A DNA stretch of 62,926 nt, counting the filler, from Intoshia linei (lineage: Eukaryota; Animalia; Orthonectida): the NCBI GenBank assembly GCA_001642005.1. It is 8 parts of 8 records of this genome, joined end to end, with 100 filler letters (N's around TTAATTAATTAA, not from the genome) between each part and the next. Parts side by side here need not be neighbours in the genome. Positions count along the whole stretch, not along the records: positions 1 to 17,278 come from LWCA01000811.1; 7 more parts are not named here. One strand, given 5' to 3'. Positions within the stretch are counted from its first letter, which is position 1; every line of letters begins with the position of its first letter. Shown here one piece after another: positions 2,422 through 60,045 of this stretch. Both the position numbers and the translations under genes were made by a program. The notes beneath the pieces are model-generated. The model had not been told where the DNA came from and made no database searches. It was given only the letters and a program-made list of their open reading frames with translations.

Positions 2422-5400
2422 CTACCCATAAATGGAAAGTTGTAAAAACTAAAATTATAATTATTTAACGTTTTTCAATTACAACCTTGTCCAAAGAAAT
2501 GGAATCAGGTGATACATTGAGAGTTTTATACGTTTCTAAATTTTAAGTTTTAAAATAATAATACTAATCTACCTATCAATATTGACATCCTGAAACAACA
2601 AATGATAAAATCTTCGCAGTCAATTTTGTTGTCTTCATTGATATATCTTAATATTATGGCAGTTAGTGTCCCATGAGAAAGTGAAAACCCTAAATTTTTC
2701 ATTGCCATTTTAAGTTCTGATGGGTCCAAATCGTTTGATTTGTCAATGTCATGTTTGTAAAATTCGTTCTATAAAATATGTTTACAACATTGATTTTTTA
2801 TTAACCTTGAAATAAATGAGCATTTTAATAGTTTCTTCATATTCACCAATGTCAATTTTACCTCGTTTATCGTTCTAAATATTTTAGACACTGAATTATA
2901 CACATTACATCTTTATAGCAAATCATTATTCTGCACAAATCTGTTGTTAATTTATGCATACTGAACCAACCTAAATTAGAATTTACATAATTTGAAGTAT
3001 TGAATTTTATACGATTTGAGCTATGCATCACAATTTCTCGGAGCAAAACTTTTAATTTAAATGCATCCACAACAGCACTATCACCATAAACGTTTCGGAA
3101 TTTTTTTTTGGAGAATTTCAAATCATTTGACGTATCATTGATATCGTGTACCTGAAATTTTAATTTGGAAATTTAATCACTATTTTGAATACATTTTTGA
3201 TCAATTTAGCACTGTCTAAATTAGTTTGTTCTTCAATTTCTCTAAAAATTAAGTACTGTAATCAGTTGATTTAATTTTCAATTATAGAAATTACGCAATG
3301 TTAGCTTTAGATTCAGTATAAAATCGCAAATAAAAATCGCACTCTTTTCCAGGTTCAAATGTGGAGGGTATTATAACGTAGTTTCCCGGTTTAAGCTTGT
3401 AGCGACAAGTCACAGTCCGCATGTTGGTAAATTCTGAAGTTGTAATGGACTGATTATACTTGAAAAAATTGGTTGAGTAGGTATCAAATGTATTATCTTC
3501 CTTCTAATATTAATTATGAATTAATTAATATAATCAACATAATTACTTTTTCATAGATAATGTAACCAATCGGTGTGAGAACAGGTTTTACGCCAGCCAC
3601 GATTTTACGCCGATAAATTTGAGAAAGTGATATTATGAAGGTACCTTTTTTATCATCATCATCCCCATCTGTCAATTTTACTTGGTATTGAGGGTTTGTG
3701 CAAAATGTCTCTAATTAAATACTTCATTACATACATTTATGGCATATATAAAGTACTAATATAATTTCGACATCCGCCAGCAGAAACATTCTTTATCCAT
3801 CGACCATAAAACTCATTCACTGCCAAATTTTGATCATATTTGAAATTTAAATGGCAAACTTCAATTTTATCATAATTTTTAACAAAATCGTTATAGTCCA
3901 TCCTGAATTTATCCAATTATTAAAAAATTAAATATAATAAACCAAAATTCACCATCATCTCTTTTGACAAAATTAATTTTATCTTTTTGTTCAGCGTTTA
4001 ATTTATTCCAATCTTTGGATCTATCAATTGAAAAATAAAAATAAAAGTTGATGAAAACTCATCGGACCAAGCACCATTCCATTCTTTATCGTTACCCCAA
4101 GGGTTTCGGATACGCACTAGGTTGTAATTTTTTGAGTTTATCGAAAACTAGACACATTGAGTTAGAATACAATATAGAGTTAAAAACTGTCTTAAATCCG
4201 GTTATGGTGTAAGCGTGTCCCTTGATAAGTCCATTTGATAGAGTTACTTCACCGCCTTCGCTCTGTTTTATCATTTATACATGTATTTAAATTATATTTA
4301 TGTATTACCTTAATTGAACAAGACATGAGAGATTTTTCTTTGATAAATTTCTCAAGTTGATGACATAGTTGCTTTAAATTTGTTTCTTTGTTGATAAAAA
4401 ATGTTTCAGATAAACCTCCAGTCATATCTTCAAAACCCTCACTGCTAGATCCACCACACAATGATTCATATGTACCATGGAATCTATATAAATGTGCTAA
4501 TTATATAAAGTAAATACATGTTACTTTGCATATGCTTTTTCCAACAAAGAAGCCCAAAATTCATTCTGTTCGTTAGAGTGTAAAAAAATTAATCGATCGT
4601 TCACAGTTGGCAATAGATCGTCTATTATAATGTCTACCCATCGACCATAGCGCCAAAATTTAAATTTAAGTGCACCAGTATAATCTTTAGACGCGTTTCC
4701 CTTTTTTGACTGGAGTGGAATCAAATTTATACGTGACGTGTCCACAATATTTTTTATTATATGAGGTTTATCAGCTATTGCTGCTAGAGCCGATAAAAAC
4801 CAACAATTCCCTAAATAAATTAATTTAGTGTTTATAATATTAATAATGTAGTAATTAAATCGGGTATGAGGTCCATGAGCCGCTGCAGCGGTTTAAAGGA
4901 ATTCAGTTTAAATTTAAATCAGTGCTTCTCAAAGTAATAAACGTCGTGGACCCCTAAAATATTTATGTGTAAATATTGTTTTCATCATGGCATATGCTTT
5001 AATTATTAAATTCCAAATTAAGCGCATTTAATATATTTAAATGGGATTTTTACTTTAAGTGTTGGTAAGATTAAATCTTTTCTTTTAGTATTGGATTAAG
5101 AGGTGTTTTCTCGGATGGTTTGATAAAATCACATTTTCAAAAAAAATTATAAAAAGTGGATTTCTCCCTTAACATTTAAATTATATGCTACCATATTTCT
5201 TTTTACGTTGTTTGTTAGTTTTCTTCGTATATTTTCAGGATATTACAAAATGATTATAGAAAATTTAATATTAAGGTTCCATTAAAATATGACATAAAAA
5301 AATAAATTATACTATATTTTAAAAGACATTCTCAAAGGGAATGCATCGTAACTACGCCAATGTTGACTAAAAAAGTAATGACAGTACATGGTAATGTTCA

Positions 5401-7060
5401 GAAAATTAAACTCTATCGAATGCGCGTAAAAGTGATGCGGTTAGAATTTAAAAAAATGAGTTAATTATTTGTTAATTAGAATTATATAATTATACTTAAA
5501 GTGTTAATTTATCAGAACATAGAGGTAAAACACCGTTTTGTGGTTATAATTTACAATTTATTAATACCATAAATGTATAACGTAGATAATAAGTTCAATT
5601 CGTAACGCCGTAACATTTTATATGTATTTTGAACCGAATTTATAGTCTAATTACAAGAATAAATTTTTTTTAATTTCTGAAATATCTGTTAATTACGTAA
5701 TTATCTCACTATTTAATCTATTACAAAACCTCAATTAATTATATTGTCACAGGAATCATTAAAAAACATGTTCAAATTTTATCATATTTCTTGCACGTTA
5801 CACCGTAACTCTTTTTAACTGTAAATGTACGTTTTAGTATTTACTTATATGTAAAATAGTGCAAATAACCATGTTGCACGCTGTCATACGCGTATTTTAA
5901 GTCTATCCATAAGTATGAGTCTTGGATATTATTTCTTGTAGGTCACTTAAATTGAAATATTTATATTTTATTTGTTAGCGAATGGCTCATGAAATTTATT
6001 TTAATTTAAAAAAGCTGCTGTTTTTGCAATTAATTTTAATTTTTTAAAACAAAATGGTAAAGAATCGGAATCGTCGCATCACTAGTAATGACATTAATTT
6101 ATATTTGGAAAACTCAAATTCAATCCAATACGTACCAACAACTTTTTATTGTTTACCAGACCTAATGACAACCCTGAAATACATTTCGTAGAATCTGGGC
6201 GAAAATGAATGTCAGTTCCAATCGTAAAAATTTACACAAAATCTTAATAAACTAATTTTGTAGGGAATTACAATAGTTTTTCACAACGATTAGAACCCTG
6301 CCGTTTGGTTTGACACTAGTGATAATTGTTATCAAGCCTCTTGACTCAAGAACCAACTAAAAAATTCCAATTTCTAAAGAGATCAAGAGACGCATTGCCT
6401 AAACACTAAAAATATTCATGCAAATTGAAATAAATCAATACATTGTTTATTACATTATTCCAATCAAGTCAACATTACCGATAATACCCTGCCTTACATC
6501 AAATCGACTGGTATCATCAACAAAAAATTGTGCATTGGAGCAAATTTCCTAATAACAAAATAATAAAAAATTGAATCAACATACATGAGGTCTTTTCCAT
6601 ACGACTTTACCTACCATCTTGGTAAATAAACTACTATTGTCCGCCTTAAAATCGGGATCAACATAAAGTGAATTGGTTTTGATACAGTGTCTATTAATTT
6701 CGTCAAAAACTTTTTTATCTTTCTAAGAATAAAATATTGATAAACCTACAAAACAAGAAATCACCTGATCAAATTCAGACTCAGGTAAAGTCCACCCAGA
6801 CCTATAACGTTTATCAGCCGTCACAATAGGTTTATCGATTCTATTTTCATCCATCTTATTAGGTTCGGTTTTATTCATAGGTTTCTTGGTAGATTTGGGT
6901 ATTTCTAAAAAAACTGCATTAAATTAAACGTGACTGTTTGCTCAAATTATATTTGCTTTTCTAGTTTGGTTGTTATACTTATTTAACTGTATTAATTACT
7001 ACCTGAGATGGCACTTGACTTTGCCGGATAAACCATACTAGAACAAGGCAAATTTCCCAT
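2422..7060 (-). CDS. Classical calpain (CysPc, C2-like domain III, penta-EF-hand), many small exons
   Basis: Spliced motifs: VDPDF..WKRPHEI, QGIIG|NCW (catalytic Cys, split by the 4811-6479 intron), FWASLLEKAYAK, GLIKGHAY (His), LVRIRNPWG (Asn), SAGGCRNY, NPQY, YVIIPSTFEPG, EF-hand DIDKSNDLDPSEL, ending FLQLSIYG*. Start is ATG 7060 (MGNLPC) or in-frame ATG 7069. Confidence 0.95.
6061..6400 (-). ncRNA. Candidate structured intronic RNA of unknown family
   Basis: Seven nested helices found by eye. Their mismatches read as G-U pairs on the minus (calpain sense) strand. See findings. Confidence 0.4.
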
Positions 7061-7452: not shown

Positions 7453-7534
7453 GCCGTCGTGACCGAGTGGTTAAGGTGATAGATTAGAAATCTATTGGGC
7501 TCGTCCCGCACAGGTTCGAATCCTGTCGTCGGCG
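7453..7534 (+). tRNA. tRNA-Ser (anticodon AGA)
   Basis: Cloverleaf: GCCGTCG/CGTCGGC acceptor, D-arm with GAGTGGTTAA, ATAGA-TTAGAAA-TCTAT anticodon arm, long variable arm, ACAGG-TTCGAAT-CCTGT T-arm, G discriminator. Confidence 0.95.
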
Positions 7535-16885: not shown

Positions 16886-17378
16886 GATTAGAGCATAGTT
16901 TTTCAAACTAATTTTATTAAGTGTAAACTAACAATATATTCAAAATCTCCAAATCTTACCGGTATTGTTAGAAAAGTACTGGGTTAATGGGTTAGATTTT
17001 GAAACTTGTAGGTAATAACTTTTTGGAGAGTGGTTTACACATAGACCAGAGGTTGGGAAGCATTTACTTTTCGAAGAATATAGTAATATCCCAAAAAAAA
17101 TTTAATAAGGCCGCACCTTTCTAAATAAGATGTAATCAAATACAGCAGTGCTTCTCATGGGGGTGAAGACCAACATTTTAGATGATTGGGGTGAATGATA
17201 AGTATTTAGCTTATTTTATTCAATTTATTAGGTCGTTTCATAAGTAATGTCGTTTTTATTGTAACTTTATTATAAATCNNNNNNNNNNNNNNNNNNNNNN
17301 NNNNNNNNNNNNNNNNNNNNNNTTAATTAATTAANNNNNNNNNNNNNNNNNNNNNNNNNNNNNNNNNNNNNNNNNNNN

Positions 17379-18994: not shown

Positions 18995-19250
18995 TCTGTA
19001 GTACAGATTAATTACTCTCGACAACAGTATTAGAAATTTAATTTTGTTAAATTCTAAGACTGTTAAATTTTTAAATAAACGGTAACATACAGTCGAACCG
19101 ACACACAGAGAAAAATAATTAAATTTATATAAGTAAAGGATTAACTGTTTTTGTTACATATTGTCAGGTTTGATTTGCTCTATAATATATAATAATATAA
19201 TATATACATATACATAATGTATGTATTAATATAGAGTCTATATTATAGAC

Positions 19251-19350
19251 CAGGGGTGTCAGACTTAATTTGCTTGGCGGGCAAAATGTGAAAAAAAAAT
19301 TATTACCCGCAATTATGCAAATGACCCGAGGGCCGCATAATTGAAACATG
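19251..19350 (+). mobile_element. 100-bp hAT MITE
   Basis: Degenerate TIRs CAGGGGTGTCAGA / TTGAAACATG, near-TSD TTATAGAC/TAATAGAC. Confidence 0.6.
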
Positions 19351-19751
19351 TAATAGACTCTATATTAAGATTTTACGATTTATTATAATATTAATTGAAT
19401 TACATATGTATACCTATTGTTTAACTTTAACTTGTTAGAAACTATTATGTTGAAAAATTACTTACATAATTTTTTAGAAATTGTCGATGCAATATTATCA
19501 CAACCATTTCTTGGAATTTATTAAATAAAATTTACAACTTTGTATTTCTTGCAAGTTTCAATGTAAAACTTGCATTCTTTCATTTATTATTTACAGTAGT
19601 AGCGAAAGTGAGAGTGATTTAATATTCGCACTACCAAATTCGTAGTTAATTTATTTATGTTATTGCTGATAATGAAGCAAAAATATCTCTTCGTTGATGC
19701 AATTCACTTGGTGTAACTTACGAGAATACATGGGATATATTATGTATAATA

Positions 19752-30100: not shown

Positions 30101-33100
30101 GAACGAAGCGATAACAAAAATTTTAGGGCTCTTTTTAGAAGACAGGGCATACTGTTGGTTGGAGACTTAGAGTCTTATTTCATTGAATATTAATAAAAGC
30201 ATTACAAGATATTATGTAGGTATCTAGTAACTTTTATTTCTTTTACAAAAACTTAATTAATTATTTATTTTATTATTATTTATTAAAATTTATTTTTTAA
30301 TAAATTGGGGGCTTCTTTTTAAGATATAAATGTATAGTACTTTTATTAATTTTCGAGCCTTTTTTAATAAGTGGCCCTGGGATACATCCCATATTGCCCA
30401 TGTCTTAAAACGGCTCTGTTTCTGAGTATGGAATTTTTTTTAATATATTACAAAATTATGCATAAAAATAATAAGACCAAAAAGAAGATACAATAAATAA
30501 ATACTGCCTAATAATTAGTCCCTAATTCCTCGTTAACGGAATATTTGGTCCTGAAAAAAATCTCATTCCGTTAACGAGAAATTTTTTTGAAAAATTTTTT
30601 AATTTTCTGTTTTAATGTTATACAGTCTAAGTCAGTGGTTTTCAACCTTCTGGTGTTCGCGATCCCTTTATAAACATAAAAAATTTTCGCGACCCAAAAA
30701 TTTTTTATATAGTCCAAATATCATATCAATTCACATAAATAAAATTATTAAAAATCATATTCAGTTTTATTTATATTTTATACTGTCTACAGTGAGCAGT
30801 GCTCAGTACACTGTATTATTATAATGACTGAATTTATTTTCTTAATTTTAATCTTAATTTCTTAAAATATTACGTGCAGCGGATTCAAATATTAAATCTA
30901 TTACTTCATCCTGTATTTTATCGGGAATAGTTTATATATTAAGTGAAGAACTCCTTGAAACAAGGTAATGAAAATAAGTTCATTAGTAGTAAAATCCCTA
31001 TCCTATAGTATCGTGTACATAAAATACAAAACTTTTTTAATCAATACCTTTTCATAATTTCTTTGTTTCAATAAATACATAACAATCAACTTTTTTTCCA
31101 TATTAATAAATTCAACAAAACCATCACAAGATATAAGTGGCTCAGAAAACAAATTATCATACAATCCTCTCTCTACATGCCATTTAAAAGTAAAATTTTG
31201 AAAATCCTAAAAAACAATAAAAAAATATTTTTTTAAAAACCTTGTAAGTTTCATTATTCAACATATCATTCAATAATTCCATATCATCAGTTTTATAAAT
31301 GATGACCAACAATGAATGATAATCTCTCCAAATTAAAGCATACTTTTTAGCTTTTTCAAAAAATCCTTTAACGATAAACAAGGAAAGAACATGAAATCTG
31401 GATTTAATCATCAATTGTTTAATTTCAATATATTCTGCTGAATCGACAAGTTGAATACGTTGCAATTGATTTTCAAAAGATTGAACAAAGCTATTACAAT
31501 TGTCTTCAAAAATTTCAAACAACAGCAAATCAGTAACAGAATCACCCATAGACATGTCCAATAATTGAAAAAAACTTTCCACCTTAAATGTTTTTAAATT
31601 ATAAATACAAAACTTACATATGTCAGAAAAGCATGTCGAAATTCATCATTATCTGGAATAAATGTCAATTCCTTATATTGAGAAGGATTCAAGTCGAGAA
31701 AATTTCGAAAAAAATGTCGATAAAAGAGAGAAATGTGCTTAACAATATTGGTGAGTTCGTGATAATTGGCATTTTCCAATTCAACCAAATTATTGAACAA
31801 TTCAACGCAACTTTCAAAAACATTTTCAGCGTTGGGTATAGCCTGAAAAATTACGGTGATATAATTGGTAGATTCGTGTAAATTTGTTTTCAAGTTTCTC
31901 AGATAATAATCAACAATTAAAGAACTGGTATATTCATCAAAATTGTTATTAAAAAGAGTTGAAAAAAATTTCAATCTCAATTGAGTATTGAAAATGTGGT
32001 TTAAGGTGGCAATTTTAAATGATTTTAAAAGTAAATCATAGACGCCAGTTCTTTCGAGAAAAAGGTTAAAATAAAATAAATTGCGATTTTTAATGATTAA
32101 AAGTTTATGAACAAGTTTGTAATCAACAATATCATACTCTGATTTATCTGTGGAACAATCTGAAGTAATGGTGTTGGTGTCATCAGAGAAAATACGATAA
32201 CTGGTACTAAAACAAATTTCGTCTACAATTTTAATGATTGTACTGTATAAAGATAGAGATTTGTCACTTTTAAGAAGTTTTTTTAGTCGGTCAATCATTT
32301 TATTCATCTCATCTCCATTCCCATCTACAGAATATTGAAATGCCTGTAAAAGGCAACCGTAGGGTTGGTTATCCAAATTTTTATCAAATTTTGTGAGAAA
32401 TGTCAATTTAAAATTCTTATTGGCTTCAGCAATCTCAGAAAGGTGTTTAGCTTCAAAAATTGTTTCTTTCAAGTAAATTAATCCAGCGTTTTCCAAATAA
32501 ATGTTTGCAATAATGTCTCCTGAACCTGAATCGAGTGTATAAACAACATCGTCGATTCTGTCAATATTTATAGTAGTTTGTTTTTTAGTTACGCTAGTTA
32601 AACACCAAATTGAACATTTATTGTAGACTAGAAATGTAACGTCGTTTTTCGAGGTTTTTATGAATTTCGATTCTGACAAAGAATTTAAATTTTGATTAGT
32701 ATTGATGAAAACATGATTTCCACTAGATTTAAAATTATTAGATACTTCAAAATTTGCTATAAAAAGCTGATGGTTGTTTTTATTTATAGATAACATTAAA
32801 CCATACAGGGATTCACCATAAACGTTCCACAGTGCGTCCAATAACGTAACATTTTTAAAATTAGAAAGACAGTTTTTTAAATTAATATTACATTTTTCGT
32901 CAGTGTGGAATTCGTTGGCTGAGGAATTATAGAAAATGTTTTTATTAATCATTTGACAATCTTTGTAAAATGTAAAAAAAGACGGAGTGTCTTCATCCAT
33001 ACAACATAAAAAACAAACAGGCACTTTAATATCCAAGCTGCTGCTATGATTTAGTATAGATGAAAGTCTTTTACCAATATGTGAAATAAAGGATGGTTTT

Positions 33101-35227: not shown

Positions 35228-36809
35228 TTCAAATGAAAATAAATTTTAAATTAGTTTTAGAATAAATAGTAACAAATATCTAAATTAATGTATATTTACA
35301 TTAATAAATTGATGATAAAATTGATATTTATTTTAATTAATTTTTTAAAGGTTAATCTTAATTTAATTGTGTTTACCTTCGAATATAATCGCAACCGTGT
35401 ATACTAGACTTTCTTAGCCTTGTTATCTATTTTACTGAGACCCTGAGTTTGATGCTTCATACAAAAAGAATAATATAAATAATATTTTATTTTTTTGTAA
35501 CATTGTTTTTACTTATTTGGTATGTATTTGACAATATATAATTTTTAATATTATCATCACTTTATTTCGATTTCCGACGACATTCTTAGCTTTATAAACA
35601 TATTTTATAGTTTAGGATCAATTATGACAATAAAAACAGATTCAACGCTATCAATAGTTTTAAATTATGACTTATTAACGATTTAATTTCTCGAATTCTG
35701 GCTCAATAGCAATTAACATAGTTTAAATTTTAAATGATTGCATAATATGAATTCCATAAAATCCAAAAAAATTGAGCTAGAAACAAATTTAAAAAAATAA
35801 ACTTCAGTTTTAATTTCTCCATAATATTTATAGTGATATTTAAAATGACAAACGCAACTCGAATAGATATCGTCAAGTGTTTTTGATTGCGAATTAGTTT
35901 TTCTATTTTAAAAATACACACTTATAGTGCTAATTTGTCTTGATTCTTTGATGGGTATGACACCCTAATGCACACCTTATTAAACACAAATACACATTTT
36001 TAGCAATTTGTACGTTATATAAGATAGGATAATAGTAGAATGACAAAATGTTTATTAAAAAATAGCAAGTATCATTTTATTTGATTCCAATCTCTAAATT
36101 TGATATTAAAAATATTAACAAATGTAAATAAAAATAAAAACTTTTAAATGTAGTAATAAATGTTGGCAATATACCAAATATATTTTGTTTAAATATTAAA
36201 ACTAATATAATTTATTTAAACATATTTACATTATTTTTTAAAATAGTATTTTAAGAATATAAATGCATTAACAAAACCTCAGGATATTTTTGATCCCTTT
36301 AGTCATTATATTTACACTTGTAGTTAATAATTTTTAAAATTATCTAAACGATAAAAGTTGGTGTATAATGGTATGTAAATCTGTTAATAGAACTTTCTTA
36401 GTTTTGCCTATTGTCAATACAATATCACAGAAATGCCCAATTTTTTTTTGATGCGATCGACTAATACATTGACTAGAAAAATGTTTCTGATAGGAAAAAT
36501 ACTATAAAAAATGTATAACTAAATATTTTTAGTGTGATCGTAGAAAATATAAAAATTAAAATTCTGAATGATTCCAAGCACTTTCGCTGTATATTTGAAA
36601 ATAATTGTCAAAACCTAGTTTAAGAAATATGGACTAATTTATTTATTAGATAAAGATTTAAACAAGTTACATCGCATTTATTCAAATGTGTAAAAATTTT
36701 AACAATATNNNNNNNNNNNNNNNNNNNNNNNNNNNNNNNNNNNNNNNNNNNNTTAATTAATTAANNNNNNNNNNNNNNNNNNNNNNNNNNNNNNNNNNNN
36801 NNNNNNNNA

Positions 36810-39180: not shown

Positions 39181-39572
39181 TATCATAACTAAAGCAATTT
39201 ATTAAATAACCTATATAAAAAAATAACCTAACGACTGATTTTTAGTAGCTTTTAGCTATNNNNNNNNNNNNNNNNNNNNNNNNNNNNNNNNNNNNNNNNN
39301 NNNTTAATTAATTAANNNNNNNNNNNNNNNNNNNNNNNNNNNNNNNNNNNNNNNNNNNNATAAAAACTCAATATCACAAACAAAACAAAATGAAGTTCTC
39401 TAATAGAAAGATTAGTGATAAACAAGTTATAAACGCTTTAATACTTACAAGAAAACTAAGAAAACTTTTTGAAACAAAATAAACAATTTATTAATTATGC
39501 ATTTTTCGGTCCCTGAAATATTTTAAATAACAATTCAAAAGTTTAGAAATGTATATAATTTAATTTAATTAG

Positions 39573-41887: not shown

Positions 41888-42728
41888 AAGTATAAAAATT
41901 ACATTGTAGTCTTTTGCTAAACATTTGTACCAATCTAAAACAGTATAAATTCAATATATCTATTCTTTAATCTAGATTACCTTTCAAATTTACTCAATCC
42001 TAAAATTTTGCCATTCGGTAAATAAGCTATTGTTACCTAAGCTTCAAATCAATTTTACATTATAAAATTTAAAATAGCTCATATATTGTTACGTGTAGTC
42101 AGCAGCATCATTAATTACAATTACATTATTAAAGACTCGTGATATTAAGTGTTTCATGGTGTCAAAATTATGAAACTGAACAACTCTAAAGAAAGGATCA
42201 ACAGGAAAAATATCGTATAAATTTATAAGATCTGAACTATTAATTTAGAATTTTTCAGGGGTGTTAGCAAAATAAATTTCAACCTCCCTAACTCACATCT
42301 TACAAATATCAAAAAGCGCAATTATCCTTTTTTTTTTTAAGAATCAAACGAGTTTGAGAATTTAAAAACATATATACTCTGATACGGATTTTAAAATCAT
42401 CAATTTAAATTTAAAAAAATATATATTCAGGGTCAAAACCACAAATTACTCTTTTTTTTAATGAAAACAGTCTTCGAATTTAAAAAATTTTACAGGTGGT
42501 ACAGTTATATCCTGTTAACACACACAAAAAATTTCAATCTTAATAAGTGACGCCTTTACGGTCAAAAAATCATATTAGTATTCATATATATTTTTTTCCG
42601 AAATATTTTATTAAAACAAAAAATGTGANNNNNNNNNNNNNNNNNNNNNNNNNNNNNNNNNNNNNNNNNNNNTTAATTAATTAANNNNNNNNNNNNNNNN
42701 NNNNNNNNNNNNNNNNNNNNNNNNNNNN

Positions 42729-43230: not shown

Positions 43231-44322
43231 AAATTTGCATAATATTTTGGCACACTTAGCAATATAAAAAAACGATAATATGTAAATAAATATTGATTAG
43301 GGTGTCCACTTTTTAAACTTTACGTTGAATTAACAAAATTATATTTTACTGAGCGTTCGAAATGTAATTTAGAACACAATTACCGATTACATTTTATCTA
43401 GTTTTGTAATTTTTTTTGCCTATTTTTTTTAAACCTTTTTTAAAAACATGACCGAAGAACTTTATTATTGTTTATGTTTATATACCTATATACATTTAAA
43501 TGAGATTTAAATAAGGTAAAATGATTATTAAATACGTATTTTTGACATGAAAATGGTATCGTTGTTAATGTAAAAAAAGTAGTAAATATATTAATATATA
43601 AAAAATCAATTTATGTATTTAAATGTAAAATATGCTACTACAATTTGTACCTCTAAAGAGAAAAGAGATATAATACTTTTTTACCCTGGTAGACCCATAT
43701 TCATCTTTAACGGAGAGTAGAAAAGAGTAGTGCTAAAAGCCACTGTGGGGTAACCTCACAAGGATAGAGATAAATCTATAATACAAAATGTAATAGCATA
43801 TTTTAATAATTTGGTAATTTATTAAATTTTGACATAAGTTATAACTCTAAACTTAACTCCCTTAACAGTGTGTAAAATAAAGTGAAATGACTGGTCCATG
43901 GTAAAACCAGTATAGAAAAGTTGGTATTGGTAATAGGTAAGTATACCATGTTTGGTAATTGTGAGATGTTTATATAAGAATTTATTTTTTTGTGGAATTA
44001 AAAAGTCCACCCTCTGCAGAGCTAGGTACTTTTTTTACGAAGTACTTAGCAGTCAAGCTAGTATGCAATAAAATGTAGTACTCAATATAATTTGGACATT
44101 ACAGTTACAATAAGTGAAGTATCGTAAAATTTTTCATTGTTCGTGGTTGGAACTGGGTAGCGAGTGGGTGAGTTGCAAAAGATTGATAAACATTGCACAT
44201 GAACTTTAAAATTTAAATTATGATATTACATTGTATTGAAAAATGAATTGAATACAATATCAATGTAAATATTTATTTTTGGATATATAATTTTTAAAAA
44301 TATTACTATTAAAAGACCTGAT

Positions 44323-47300: not shown

Positions 47301-50300
47301 TATTATGAATGTACCGACGCATTTTACAGTAAATTCAGACACGAGCCGGGCAGTTGTTCAGCTTAATAAATAATTAATATCATTTTATTTACATTGATCA
47401 TTTCACATATACAATATTTATATGTACTGTATTTCTATATTATTTTTTGTTCATACTAGTTTTTCTGTTATATACTTGACAAATATACACAATACAGTGA
47501 AAAATTCCTATACGCAGTGCGTATTACGCACAGTGTGCGTCGCACACTTTATATAGATGTGCTTATATAAAGTGTGCACATGTAAAGTGTGGTTATAGGG
47601 AGTGTTCACTGTATTAGGAATTACAGTATTTTTATATTTGTTTTCAACTTTACAGAAAAGTTTTTGCGCATTACAATAATGTTTGAACAAAATTGTATTG
47701 AATATAAATAAATAAAGTGTAAAAACTTTGTTGCAAATAGTGCTTCCGCTGCAGATCTCTCAAGGATGAGACCATTGACAGTTTATGCTTATTAAAAAAA
47801 ATATTAAAAAAACATTAAATATTGATAATGGTAAAATTAATTAACATTTATTTATATTACACTAGACAACACTGGAAAATACATTTGCATAAAAATAATA
47901 CCATCTTGTGGATAATCTAGCGCTGATTTCAATGATATATTATATTTATAAGTTTTAGTTCATATAACCCATTTATTAACACTTTTAATGTTAAAAAAAA
48001 TATAACAAAGTTTCACTTCAATTCTAAAATTGACCAAAACGTAATATAAATTTGAATAAAACTTGAGGCAAAAAACTAAAGCAGAGGCGCCAGAAAAATA
48101 CGTAGCATAACTTTTAGTTTATTTTGAATAAATTTTAAGTCTAAAATTTTTATTCGTCATCATAGATAAGTAGTTTTGGCTTTACATTTATCACCAAATA
48201 AACTAAAATTGATGGTGCGTTTTTTTTTGTCACTTTACTTTAAAGTGCAAAAACAAATATAAAAACACTGTAATATGAACAAAATTGGAAAATTTTTTAA
48301 TATTTATTTTAAATTTTATGATTAACTACAAAACAAACACAATCTTTAATATAATAAACGTATATAATTTAAAAATGTACAGTAGTACAATTTGTTACCT
48401 TATTTTATCAATGATGATGGTAATTTAATAGTTTTGACATTTCTGATGGAAATACATAATATATAGTCTAACCCAGTGTTCGCCAAATTGGATGGCGCGA
48501 AATATACTTAAAGTGGTTCAAGATATTCTGAATATTATTTTCAAGCAATACTTAAAAAAATAATTGTAATTAATTTTAACCATTTATTACTTTTCAATTT
48601 CAATTTTATTGATACATGTATGAACATTAGGGGTTCTGCGATTTAAACTTACAAAATCTATTTAATTGTGTAAATCTCGTAAATATTTAATTGGAAATGA
48701 ATGTAAAATTTTACCAAATAAATCCATGTTGTTGATATCTTTCTTCACATCTTGTTTGTGTGAGGGTGAGGTTTTAATTTTAAATTATAAATTAAAAAAA
48801 TTTTAAAGACTTAATATAGGAATCGACTAACGATCAACTAATTGTTTCTCTATCGTCATATATTCTTTGTATTTTATTTGATTTGATGGAAAAAGGAAAA
48901 CGAACAAAAAAATTTTGAAGAGTGGCGTCATTTTTTTAGTCCTGCAGAGGCTGCACTCAAAAAAGAATGTAGCGAACACTGGTCTAACGTGTCTATACTA
49001 AATTCTGCTGATAATTATCATAATCATGAAACAGTTTTGGTCAAAATTGTAACAAATAAAACAATTTTTTTTGTATAAGTAGGGATTAATGTTAATTAAT
49101 TATTGTATTAATTTTTTGTATATCTGCCAAACTTATTTTGTCATAATTAGTATTTAGATTACATACGGGAAAATAGTTGATAATTACAACAAAAAATTAT
49201 CTTTTTGTTTCAAGGATAAAAGAGATTGTGACGGTTATCCCTGTTTCGTAGGGTTTGTACAATATAATAACAGTACGAAGAAAGCAGCAATTAGCGTCAT
49301 TATACCAGATGTAAATATTGTTTTGTGCGAAATTAGCACATCCAACATAGTAATATTTTACAAATTTATCGATATGAAAAGTTTAAGTTGCTTAATGTTT
49401 GTCTGACCAGCACTGTCAGTCTGTCAATGTGTAAGCATATAATGTATTTGGAAATTTTAAAATGTATACATGTTAAATTGACGTACAGTAGTCAATTTAA
49501 TTTAAAAAATAGATTGTTCACTTCAGGGTTGGTAAAATTGGGAATTTTATTTTGGGTTGTATTAATATGTTGTTTCTCATAATATTTAGTATAACCGGAT
49601 TTTTCAAAAAAATATTGTAAAAAGGAGATTTTTGCCTTAAGGGTTAATAAAATTGGAATTTCTATATTCTGATTGGATTAAGTGTATTTTTCTTATAAGG
49701 GTTGGTAATATCAGCTTTTTTAAAAAAATATTGGAAAAAGGGGATTTTTGCCTAAGGGTTAGTAAAATTATAATTTCTATATTCTGATTGGATTAAGTGT
49801 ATTTTCTCATAAGATTTGGTAAAATCGACTTTTCAAAAAAATATTGGAAAAAGGAATTTTTTTCTTAAGGCTTAAGGGTTGGTAAAATTGAATTTTCTAT
49901 ATTCTGGTTGGATTAAGTCAATTTTTCTACTAAAGGTTTTTATATAAAGGGATTTTTCCCTCAAGGCTTAAGGGTTGATAAAATAGGATTTTTCTCATAA
50001 GGTTTTGTAAAATCTGGTTTTTAAGTGGACGCTTTATCTTTTACTACTGTAGTCAGCTTTTCAAGATACTTTTGAATTTAAATTAAAACTACAACAACGA
50101 ATTACTAAAAGTAATACAATTTTGTTATTATCATTTTTATATTTATTAGTAATATTATATAACGTAATAAATTATTACAATCTTTTGCAGTATTGGTAAA
50201 ATTCACCTGAAATATATTTATAAAGTTCTGATTCCGTTAATTATTTATACATAATTGGTATTTTTAAGTATTTATTAAATTAGTACTGAATATATCACAT

Positions 50301-54308: not shown

Positions 54309-54969
54309 ACAATTAAAAATATTAATTAGCTTAATTTTTGTATATATGTTGTATTTATTTTGAAACTTATATCTAATTCTATTCAAAAGTTAAACAGAGC
54401 TGCACATAACATTATACATCATTCGATGCCCTCAATTGTGGTCTATTTATTGTATACATTACATATATGACGCAGAAACTGACATTAATATTGAGGGTTA
54501 ATTAGTCCACAATATTAATTTTTAGTTATTTATTATATTATTTTGCTATCGAATTATCATACATATATACTAAATATAAATATTCCAAATATTTATTAAC
54601 CATTTTTTGATTCATAAAAAGGGATTTTTCCCAAATATATGAAAAACCGCAAATCCAATATGAATATTATTTATTTTATTAGGTTAGTTCATCAAGTTTA
54701 TCACCGAGCAAAAATAGAGTACTCCATGTCTTTTGACCNNNNNNNNNNNNNNNNNNNNNNNNNNNNNNNNNNNNNNNNNNNNTTAATTAATTAANNNNNN
54801 NNNNNNNNNNNNNNNNNNNNNNNNNNNNNNNNNNNNNNGATATAATTTCACTTTAATTTTTTTATTCGATTTTTACTGACGTACACCAGGTTGAATCTTA
54901 GTTAATTAATAATTATATTATAATCAAAAATACACAAATTAATGAATTTATTATTAGAAAGGTCATTAT

Positions 54970-58124: not shown

Positions 58125-58389
58125 NNNNNNNNNNNNNNNNNNNNNNNNNNNNNNNNNNNNNNNNNNNNTTAATTAATTAANNNNNNNNNNNNNNNNNNNN
58201 NNNNNNNNNNNNNNNNNNNNNNNNAATAATGTGAAACAAATTTAATATAAAATTAAATTAGAATACTAATTATAATATTACACATAAATAATTTACCATT
58301 TAAACTATATCAAATTAATTTGTCTTATCATATCTGTCTTAATTAGTCTTTTAACAATTGATTGATCAATTACATCATGTTTAAGGTTT

Positions 58390-58785: not shown

Positions 58786-60045
58786 TAATATTAAATTATT
58801 TAAATGTAGGTAACTTTATTTGTATTAATGTATTATTATTGATTTCAGTTTTTTTGAGTGATAAATGCTTAAAATCAAATACAGCATCCATTTAAAAATG
58901 GTAGTTCAGGATAATGATTTCAGGTGTTGAACTTTGACAATCGGTCATGTTGTACATTTTCCAGAATTTTTATGTAAAATTTTAAGTTTAATAGCTTTTT
59001 TTAAAACACGTGTTCTAATAATCAGTATGAACAATAATAAAAATGATTTGATGAAAAATTCTTTTTAGAATCAATTTTAGATTAAAAATCTAACAAATTA
59101 AAAATCTTTATTCTTTATATAATAAATTGACAAAAATTTTAATACAAGTTTTTAATTGTTGTTATTGTGATTCTGTAAGAATATTTAGAGACATTTAAAC
59201 AGTAAAATTTTTATTAAATTAAGTTAAATTTAACATAAAATTAAAGTAAAGTACAAGTGATATTTAAGATAGTGTCATAGATGCTACAGTAGTAAATAAC
59301 AAAATTGTAATATCTTCATGAAAATATTCAAAAAAAAGTACTTAAAGTTTAACCGTGATACGCACACAACTTTATCAAATTTTAATTAGCTAATTAATAT
59401 GCATAATATTAATATCATTATGCTTGTAATTTCATACCGATAAACATAACAAAAATAAACTTTATTAACTTTTGGCCGCCCTATTTATAATTTACATAAC
59501 ATTGTATTTCATACATCATGTCATAAAATTTGTAAATAGTGCAAAATTATAGGCTAACTAAATTTTATTTAACAAAATCGTCTATAAAATGGACACTGCG
59601 CAAGCACTAAATAGTTAAGTTTAATTATGGAGTACTGAGGGGTTCAGCTGACGTTGATAAATTTACTTATAAATTATAAGTTAATAATATAGTAGTTAAT
59701 AATTTAATTTACTTTAACACATTAAATGTATGTTTCAATTCCATTAAATATGAAAAAATAAGTTTGGACGTTTATATGGCTATTTTTGTAATGGTACTTC
59801 TTAATACTCTTCACCTCAAAAGTGTTGTACTAATGTATTACATTTTAAACTNNNNNNNNNNNNNNNNNNNNNNNNNNNNNNNNNNNNNNNNNNNNTTAAT
59901 TAATTAANNNNNNNNNNNNNNNNNNNNNNNNNNNNNNNNNNNNNNNNNNNNTTTATAAAATTCTAAGACTGGTAGTTATTGAAATAAAGTGGAACACACA
60001 CACACCAACAAATAATGCGTAGCATTATCAAAGTTAACTCTATTA

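What the first reader, a model, noticed from the sequence alone, without database searches (positions are those of the whole stretch)
6061..6400. Unassigned ~340-nt multi-branched structured RNA candidate in the oversized calpain intron
Seen in sequence (plus coordinates, minus-strand pairing): H1 6383-6390/6337-6344 (UCUCUUGA/UCAAGAGG). H2 6314-6324/6077-6087 (UAUCACUAGUG/UACUAGUGAUG, 11 bp). H3 6300-6309/6134-6142. H4 6286-6296/6215-6225 (GUUCUAAUCGU/ACGAUUGGAAC, 11 bp). H5 6254-6262/6235-6243. H6 6189-6198/6156-6164 (CCAGAUUCUA/UAGGUCUGG). H7 6124-6130/6102-6109. These are mutually nested and form two three-way junctions. A possible pseudoknot pairs 6364-6375 (AGAAAUUGGAAU) with 6061-6071 (AUUCCGAUUCU). 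Most non-Watson-Crick pairs are G-U on the calpain sense strand but would be A-C on the other strand, which points to selection at the RNA level rather than a DNA palindrome. It starts about 80 nt after the donor of a 1.67-kb intron, in a gene whose other introns are mostly about 40 bp. Inference: an intron-encoded ncRNA. The pseudoknot loosely recalls RNase P P4 (CR-I/CR-V) but lacks the canonical bulged U, and I see no telomerase template or SRP/U3/snR30 motif, so it could be a very divergent known RNA or a new class.
Basis: partly seen in the sequence, partly recalled or inferred. Interest (0 to 1): 0.75.

Follow-up and report, generated by a model that had tools for sequence, protein, structure and literature searches.

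The report
Candidate H/ACA RNA in calpain intron
The one oversized intron of a calpain gene in a tiny parasitic worm likely (about even odds) holds an ordinary two-hairpin H/ACA-type small RNA of about 185 bases rather than the proposed new 340-base RNA, and RNA contigs indicate that the same DNA is also transcribed and spliced in the opposite direction.

Summary
The gene is an Intoshia linei calpain, and the 1,668-nt intron is real. All eight helices exist as complementary sequence, but only H1, H2 and H4 hold in the folding ensemble. The 340-nt fold is not above shuffles (z -1.29; 11 of 100) and the pseudoknot is chance-level. No Rfam family matches, and the RNase P, MRP, SRP, telomerase, U3 and snR30 motifs are absent or at chance level. 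A smaller unit does stand out on the calpain strand: hairpin 6391-6336, box H 6332-6327, hairpin 6297-6214, ACA 6212-6210 (z -3.0). It is the only such arrangement in the window and occurs in 0-2 of 1,500 shuffles, with criteria set after seeing it. Its first loop fits one conserved animal 28S site, with 10 bp at the canonical distance from box H or 14 bp at 21 nt. Against this: both boxes are predicted paired, the second hairpin has no proper pocket, and Intoshia's own rRNA could not be tested. RNA contigs also show a plus-strand (antisense) transcript through the region with two GT-AG introns, one of which removes H5. It is not a MITE. Verdict: probable new member of a known class (0.45); chance folding is the close rival (0.35).

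The parts
4811..6478 (-). 1,668-nt intron of the calpain gene (GT at 6478, AG at 4811)
   Evidence: (joint 4805/6474 in three runs)
6207..6393 (-). Candidate box H/ACA-type RNA, about 185 nt; ends inferred (3' end taken as 3 nt after ACA)
   Evidence: (z -3.04 for 6205-6395, 2 of 200)
6336..6391 (-).
6327..6332 (-). Box H match (AUAACA, ANANNA), 3 nt after hairpin 1
   Evidence: sequence; predicted partly paired
6214..6297 (-).
   Evidence: (z -3.85)
6210..6212 (-). ACA triplet 1 nt after hairpin 2
   Evidence: sequence; predicted paired
6077..6324 (-). H2, 11-bp long-range stem (6324-6314 with 6087-6077); both arms contain the same self-complementary hexamer; its 3' arm lies outside the H/ACA candidate
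   Evidence: a stem this strong arises in 57 of 400 shuffles
5813..6507 (+). Spliced antisense transcript (true ends unknown); exonic pieces up to 5937, 5979-6223, and 6264 onward; no significant ORF
   Evidence: (X3 contig 5813-6507, X4 contig with both joints, X5 contig starting at 5979)
6224..6263 (+).
   Evidence: (joint in X3 and X4)
5938..5978 (+). 41-nt GT..AG intron of the antisense transcript
   Evidence: (joint in X4)
4920..6030 (.). Mosaic of multi-copy repeats that accounts for most of the intron's size
   Evidence: up to 17 different contigs of run X1 pile on single positions; matches to 49.5-49.9 kb and elsewhere in the window

Best explanation
The calpain-sense strand of this intron likely encodes a box H/ACA-type small RNA of about 185 nt (6393-6207), which would be trimmed out of the excised intron and bound by the dyskerin/Cbf5 proteins at box H and box ACA. 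Its first hairpin is predicted to pair with a conserved stretch near the 5' end of 28S rRNA (Rfam LSU model positions about 369-384) and would guide conversion of one uridine there (about position 377) to pseudouridine; the second hairpin would be a scaffold without a target. Shown: the two strong hairpins, the two box sequences next to them, single-copy GC-richer DNA in a spliced intron, and complementarity to animal-type 28S from other species. Inferred from established H/ACA biology: expression, processing from the intron, protein binding, target and modification. The part 6206-6061, with H2's 3' arm and the pseudoknot arm, would be ordinary intron. A separate, weakly structured antisense transcript is spliced from the opposite strand.
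For: Hairpin-ANANNA-hairpin-ACA on the host-sense strand. It is the only tandem pair of stems <= -16 kcal/mol in the window, and the only one of 49 looser tandem pairs that carries both boxes. In 1,500 shuffles of the region the pattern appears 0 times (strict) or 2 times (loose; 229 shuffles have a tandem pair). The base rate of both boxes after any two given positions is 0.006-0.015. 6205-6395 folds at z -3.04 (2 of 200). The loop strands of hairpin 1 give 6+8 = 14 bp around an unpaired UU in the 3 animal-type loci tested (next best 9; 10 bp in the 1 non-animal locus). This is reached by 34 of 1,500 shuffled strands, 3 of 1,500 random window pieces and 4 of 500 shuffled targets. With the 14-15-nt ruler enforced, the same 28S site is among the best matches, at 10 bp, above the 8-bp minimum of PMC6049503 (passages). 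One contig only in DNA-like run X1 on 6180-6401 at 80% likeness. GC 32.6% against 24-27%.
Against: The H/ACA criteria were set after seeing the candidate, and about 25 motif classes were looked at. In the 187-nt ensemble, four of the six box-H bases and all three ACA bases are predicted mostly paired, and the ruler-distance pocket is closed by three pairs (0.94-0.96) that cost about 7 kcal/mol to open. The 14-bp register lies 21 nt from box H, not about 15 (PMC7991803, PMC5778458, passages). The 10-bp register is chance-level (distributions), and on an AT-richer target 14 bp is reached by 82 and 164 of 1,500. The longer 21-nt duplex with 28S is not significant (17 of 150 and 104 of 150). Hairpin 2's 12-bp stem abuts ACA, and no consistent target was found for it. 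The 38-nt hinge and 185-nt length are long for an animal H/ACA RNA (recalled). No Rfam H/ACA family matches at E <= 10. 112 merged loci in this window reach local z <= -2.75. No homologue, so no covariation; Intoshia's own rRNA was not available.
Confidence: 0.45

Rival explanations
1. No functional sense-strand RNA. The stretch is unique, GC-richer DNA (possibly a decayed nested gene) that forms the exons of a spliced antisense transcript, probably started in the neighbouring repeats; its helices and boxes are the best chance draw in 63 kb.
For: Whole-region z -1.29; 22 of 104 windows as good; 10 of 344 reach the same top-stem z. Two GT..AG joints of 40 and 41 nt on the plus strand, sized like the calpain introns. 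GC is 35% in the exonic parts and 17.5% in the skipped 40 nt, an exon-intron-exon pattern. RNA contigs run across both ends of the proposed element.
Against: It does not explain both boxes sitting next to the two strongest hairpins on the host-sense strand. No coding signal: the longest ATG ORF is 45 aa, reached by 136 of 500 shuffles, and 679 of 2,000 shuffles have a frame with as few stops. No homologue (one search gave only 3 weak hits to repeat proteins) and no similarity to calpain or the rest of the window. An antisense RNA does not exclude a non-polyadenylated sense RNA.
Confidence: 0.35
2. One reading: one RNA of about 340 nt in which H2 clamps a multi-branched domain and the loop of H1 pairs with the 3' end; a very divergent known RNA or a new class.
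For: H2 is well supported in the ensemble (0.60-0.98). GC stays high to 6061 (33.6% in 6061-6206). Trimmed versions fold at z about -2.7 (1 of 50 shuffles).
Against: H3, H5, H6 and H7 have pair probability <= 0.16. The pseudoknot is chance-level and uses the bases of hairpin 1's own upper stem. A stem as strong as H2 arises in 57 of 400 shuffles, and both arms share a palindromic hexamer. No motif of RNase P, MRP, SRP, telomerase, U3 or snR30.
Confidence: 0.1
3. A highly diverged U4 snRNA gene or relic at about 6353-6206.
For: Rfam U4 positions 65-138 align with 6280-6206, with H5 as the 3' stem-loop followed by an Sm-like run.
Against: 10.3 bits against a gathering score of 46, E 3.4-8.3; positions 1-64 do not align; the Sm-like run lacks the G; H4 would lock the flanks together.
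Confidence: 0.04
4. A MITE or other dispersed foldback element.
For: The rest of the intron is a multi-copy repeat mosaic, and H2's arms hold a near-identical 8-mer that could be read as a target-site duplication (sequence).
Against: Only one contig of run X1 lies on 6180-6401 at 80% likeness; no second copy in the window by blastn, nhmmer or tblastx; no terminal inverted repeats inside that 8-mer pair.
Confidence: 0.04

Closest known systems
Intron-encoded box H/ACA guide snoRNAs (dyskerin/Cbf5, Nop10, Nhp2, Gar1 RNPs)
   Same: Hairpin-hinge-hairpin-tail plan with ANANNA and ACA, host-sense position in a spliced intron, and a two-sided match of at least 8 bp around an unpaired UN in rRNA (rules from passages of PMC6049503 and PMC7991803).
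   Different: Long hinge, a second hairpin without a pocket at the ruler distance, the best rRNA match 21 nt rather than about 15 nt from box H, boxes predicted paired, no Rfam family.
snR30/U17 (non-modifying H/ACA RNA that pairs with 18S rRNA)
   Same: H/ACA RNA of about 200 nt in animals, with an internal hairpin between the two main ones and rRNA pairing outside the usual guide geometry (passages of PMC7601244).
   Different: m1 and m2 motifs absent from hairpin 2 (best matches 2 and 1 mismatches, elsewhere); the candidate target is 28S, not 18S.
Intronic RNase P RNA of insects and crustaceans
   Same: A structured RNA about this long inside a Pol II intron (passages of PMC4287351).
   Different: No CR-I/CR-V pair, and the pseudoknot order differs; the same paper reports intergenic Pol III RNase P genes in two annelids and two molluscs.
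Intronic telomerase RNA of Caenorhabditis (nmy-2 intron, 327 nt)
   Same: Intron-encoded, similar length, H/ACA boxes, an outer long-range stem (sections 2.4 and 2.7 of PMC12921731).
   Different: No template for TTAGGG, TTAGG or TTAGGC (longest 6 nt); here the H/ACA unit is at the 5' side, with no room for a template domain before it.

Membership tests
Box H/ACA RNA | Two hairpins joined by a hinge | tested here: met
Box H/ACA RNA | ANANNA in the hinge and ACA after the second hairpin | tested here: met
   6332-6327 and 6212-6210
Box H/ACA RNA | Boxes single-stranded | tested here: inconclusive
   predicted mostly paired in the protein-free ensemble; prediction only
Box H/ACA guide | At least 8 bp around an unpaired UN, about 15 nt from the box (hairpin 1) | tested here: inconclusive
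   10 bp at 14-15 nt (chance-level) and 14 bp at 21 nt, same 28S site, other animals' rRNA only
Box H/ACA guide | Pocket at the ruler distance in hairpin 2 | tested here: not met
   12-bp stem abuts ACA; no consistent target in 9 rDNA loci; snRNA targets not tested
Box H/ACA RNA | Discrete RNA ending 3 nt after ACA, bound by dyskerin | not testable with these tools
   only unstranded contigs were available
Box H/ACA RNA | Conservation and covariation in relatives | not testable with these tools
   no genome held; no homologous locus found
snR30/U17 | m1 and m2 motifs in the 3' hairpin | tested here: not met
   motifs as in Table 1 of PMC7601244
Nuclear RNase P / MRP RNA | CR-I and CR-V forming P4; Rfam match | tested here: not met
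   CR-I best 3 mismatches on minus (recalled consensus); no hit at E <= 10
Telomerase RNA | Template of at least 1.5 telomere repeats | tested here: not met
   at most 6 nt for TTAGGG, TTAGG and TTAGGC. Of 13 recalled units, only TTTGG (10 nt, 6312) and TTGCA (7 nt) reach the length. I. linei's repeat was not found in the listing
SRP RNA, U3, 7SK | Helix-8 and Alu motifs; box A; GAUC pair; Rfam match | tested here: not met
   recalled motifs
U4 snRNA | Full-length model match, U6 stem II, k-turn, Sm site | tested here: not met
   10.3 bits on positions 65-138 only; U6 pairing itself not tested
HDV-like ribozyme | P3/L3 motif, P1.1 GG, catalytic C linker | tested here: not met
   the strand order H1/pseudoknot/H2 resembles P1/P2/P4, but no L3 motif lies between 6363 and 6345 (recalled motif) and no GG follows H1
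MITE | Many dispersed copies, TIRs, TSD | tested here: not met
   copies below 80% identity not excluded

The most novel reading that the evidence does not exclude
An extended H/ACA RNP RNA (up to about 330 nt, clamped by H2) that does not modify rRNA but opens its first hairpin to pair over some 25 bases with the 5' domain of 28S rRNA, a large-subunit counterpart of snR30/U17, and whose level is tuned by a spliced antisense transcript.
Probability: 0.06. Interest if true: 0.7.

Novelty: new member of a known kind. Interest (0 to 1): 0.3.

Why it matters
If real, it would be an H/ACA RNA from an orthonectid. None turned up in the listings, though snoRNA annotation in databases or subscription papers was not searched. 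It would show that a strongly reduced animal genome with introns of about 40 nt still hosts such RNAs in rare long introns, and it predicts a pseudouridine in a conserved 28S hairpin that is easy to test. That is useful annotation rather than new biology. The spliced antisense transcript is a reminder that, in genomes with tiny introns, GC-richer islands and hairpins in long introns can belong to the other strand.

Tried and rejected
Rfam: whole window at gathering score gave only a tRNA; E <= 10 on 4500-6700, 5980-6480 and 6195-6400 gave 3, 6 and 4 chance-level hits. No genome is held, so there was no genome-wide copy search. Run search: no RNA holder listed; the contigs of X2-X5 nevertheless show spliced calpain joints. 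Contig depths were not used to rank expression, and X5's lack of cover on 6130-6347 is not counted either way. The first calpain-exon search covered only 51-165-aa proteins and found nothing. The 45-aa ORF 6054-6191 (+): no Pfam hit, no homologue among 24-79-aa proteins, no Atlas hit, 3 hits to repeat proteins. My codon-usage model did not separate real exons well and is not used. A window-derived pocket pattern in viral contigs gave 120 loci that were not used further. The extended 28S duplex is not significant. A second H/ACA unit from H6/H7: weak hairpins (z about -0.2) and no consistent target. HDV-like ribozyme, hAT insertion, U4 and a TTTGG telomerase template were considered and rejected (see membership). 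Earlier findings: nothing by place or by sequence.

Full report
Setting. The exon 4808-4527 is 100% identical to an Intoshia linei protein that has calpain catalytic and domain III matches. The big intron runs 6478-4811 on the minus strand, 1,668 nt, GT..AG. Contigs of three runs join across it, and the 16 other calpain joints shown are 34-53 nt. PMC6543705 (passages) gives a median intron of 57 bp for this species. Most of the extra length is repeat: in DNA-like run X1 up to 17 different contigs pile on positions of 4920-6030 at 80% likeness, while only one contig lies on 6180-6401. The finding is therefore a single-copy island at that likeness, with 33.2% GC against 24-27% in the rest of the intron; 4 of 172 grid windows reach that GC.

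All arms are complementary where stated. The 340-nt fold is not above shuffles (z -1.29, 11 of 100; plus strand -0.74), and 22 of 104 sampled strand-windows do as well. Only 2 of those 104 reach the same raw energy, which reflects composition. H1, H2 and H4 are firm in the ensemble; H3, H5, H6 and H7 are not. The three best stems together beat shuffles on minus (3 of 300) and not on plus (127 of 300), but 10 of 344 strand-windows reach that z and 112 merged loci reach local z <= -2.75. The window's tRNA region itself scores only -2.46 there, so a modest z does not exclude a real RNA. The pseudoknot is chance-level, and a stem as strong as H2 appears in 57 of 400 shuffles. Rfam gives nothing beyond chance. 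Recalled motifs of RNase P, MRP, SRP, U3, 7SK and HDV-like ribozymes, and templates for the common animal telomere repeats, are absent or at chance level.

Antisense transcript. Contigs of X3 (5813-6507) and X4 skip 6224-6263, and X4 also skips 5938-5978. Both skips are GT..AG on the plus strand, 40 and 41 nt long and AT-rich like the calpain introns. X1 and X2 read through 6224-6263 unbroken. A contig of X5, from the other study, starts exactly at 5979. I infer a spliced Pol II transcript antisense to calpain; a deletion allele would not be expected to give two such ends. The 40-nt intron holds both arms of H5. The spliced RNA has no significant ORF (45 aa; 136 of 500 shuffles), no homologue and no notable fold (z -0.96). 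Contigs carry no strand, ends or level, so they neither show nor exclude a non-polyadenylated sense RNA.

The H/ACA-like unit. On the calpain strand, hairpin 1 (6391-6336) is followed after 3 nt by an ANANNA match (6332-6327), then a 38-nt hinge, hairpin 2 (6297-6214) and ACA (6212-6210). This is the plan described in PMC6049503 (passages). With criteria that I set after seeing it, it is the only tandem pair of stems <= -16 kcal/mol in the window and the only one of 49 looser pairs with both boxes. Shuffles give 0 and 2 of 1,500, and the base rate of both boxes is 0.6-1.5%. The unit folds at z -3.04.

Possible target. From memory I suspected that hairpin 1's loop matches a conserved 28S stretch. 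Passages of PMC4860332 and PMC4336746 show that stretch as the C2/D2 primer (PMC6492006's held text had no hit). The Rfam LSU consensus shows it at positions 366-387. The primer fetched 54 loci, which hold the site by construction; two were confirmed as eukaryotic rDNA. The loop gives 14 bp around an unpaired UU in 3 of 3 animal-type loci and 10 bp in the one other locus. Nulls on a 6.3-kb GC-rich animal-type target are 34 of 1,500, 3 of 1,500 and 4 of 500; on an AT-richer target they are 82 of 1,500, 164 of 1,500 and 10 of 500. This register is 21 nt from box H, whereas 14-16 nt is the rule (passages of PMC5778458 and PMC7991803). Enforcing 14-15 nt returns the same site at 10 bp, tied with others, which is chance-level. 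The targets lacked much of 18S, the 3' end of 28S and all snRNAs, and none came from Intoshia. Against the reading, the protein-free ensemble pairs both boxes and closes the ruler pocket, and hairpin 2 has no pocket at the ruler distance.

Weighing. It does not by itself explain both boxes beside the two best hairpins on the host-sense strand of a long intron. The atypical geometry and the lack of any expression or conservation data keep this near even. I put the H/ACA-type RNA at 0.45, chance folding in exons of the antisense transcript at 0.35, the 340-nt new RNA at 0.10, and U4 or a MITE at 0.04 each.

Comparison. It works like an intronic H/ACA guide and meets the plan and box tests. The guide test is inconclusive for hairpin 1 and not met for hairpin 2, so I file it as a candidate member. 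It is not snR30/U17 (passages of PMC7601244), not an intronic RNase P RNA as in insects (passages of PMC4287351) and not an intronic telomerase RNA as in Caenorhabditis (abstract and sections 2.4, 2.7 of PMC12921731). Searches for Intoshia with RNase P (0 papers), with snoRNA (2 papers, 1 listed) and orthonectid with non-coding RNA (6 papers) showed no description of this RNA in their listings; PMC10639083 names the species only in a legend. Supplements were not read. Earlier AI notes on intronic H/ACA candidates in other genomes were seen after I had formed this reading and are not counted as support.

Noticed in passing
window 4805-4811 and 6474-6478: At the big intron's junction the contigs of X2-X4 read GGT for the glycine before the catalytic-site asparagine-cysteine, the window gives GGG, and X1 has another base at 4809. 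Either three alleles at one silent site or a shifted GT..AT junction in those runs.
   Followed up: partly
window 6180: All four runs laid read C (plus strand) where the window has T: an allele or an assembly error.
   Followed up: no
window 7453-7534 (+): tRNA-Ser(AGA) about 400 nt upstream of the calpain start, on the opposite strand.
   Followed up: yes
window 47387-47660, 19153-19367, 43625-43806, 30431-30624: Much stronger hairpins than the finding (local z -5 to -8), scoring on both strands, as foldback or MITE-like DNA would.
   Followed up: no
window 17279-17378, 36709-36808, 39260-39359, 42629-42728, 54739-54838, 58125-58224, 59852-59951: Seven 100-nt scaffold gaps (44 N, 12 letters, 44 N) that the repeat finder reports as a repeat family; an artefact.
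   Followed up: yes
window 5030-5172 and 49521-49928: Part of the calpain intron is a 70-74% copy of a 115-nt tandem array at 49.5-49.9 kb.
   Followed up: no
window 5192-5410: Contigs of X3 and X4 match this intronic stretch without a difference, and 5200-5218 resembles the plus-strand acceptor at 5960-5978; it may be another piece of the antisense transcript.
   Followed up: no
window 6400-6346 (-): An acceptor-like AG at 6400-6399 would open an in-frame 17-codon exon ending in a stop; no contig showed such a joint among those listed.
   Followed up: partly
L237 7001-7075 (-): A 104.7-kb viral contig carries a short piece of eukaryotic 28S rRNA (E 6.5e-14).
   Followed up: no
L240-L290: Many contigs filed under bacterial genomes show eukaryotic 28S flanks around the primer site, which points to contamination; two were confirmed by Rfam.
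   Followed up: partly
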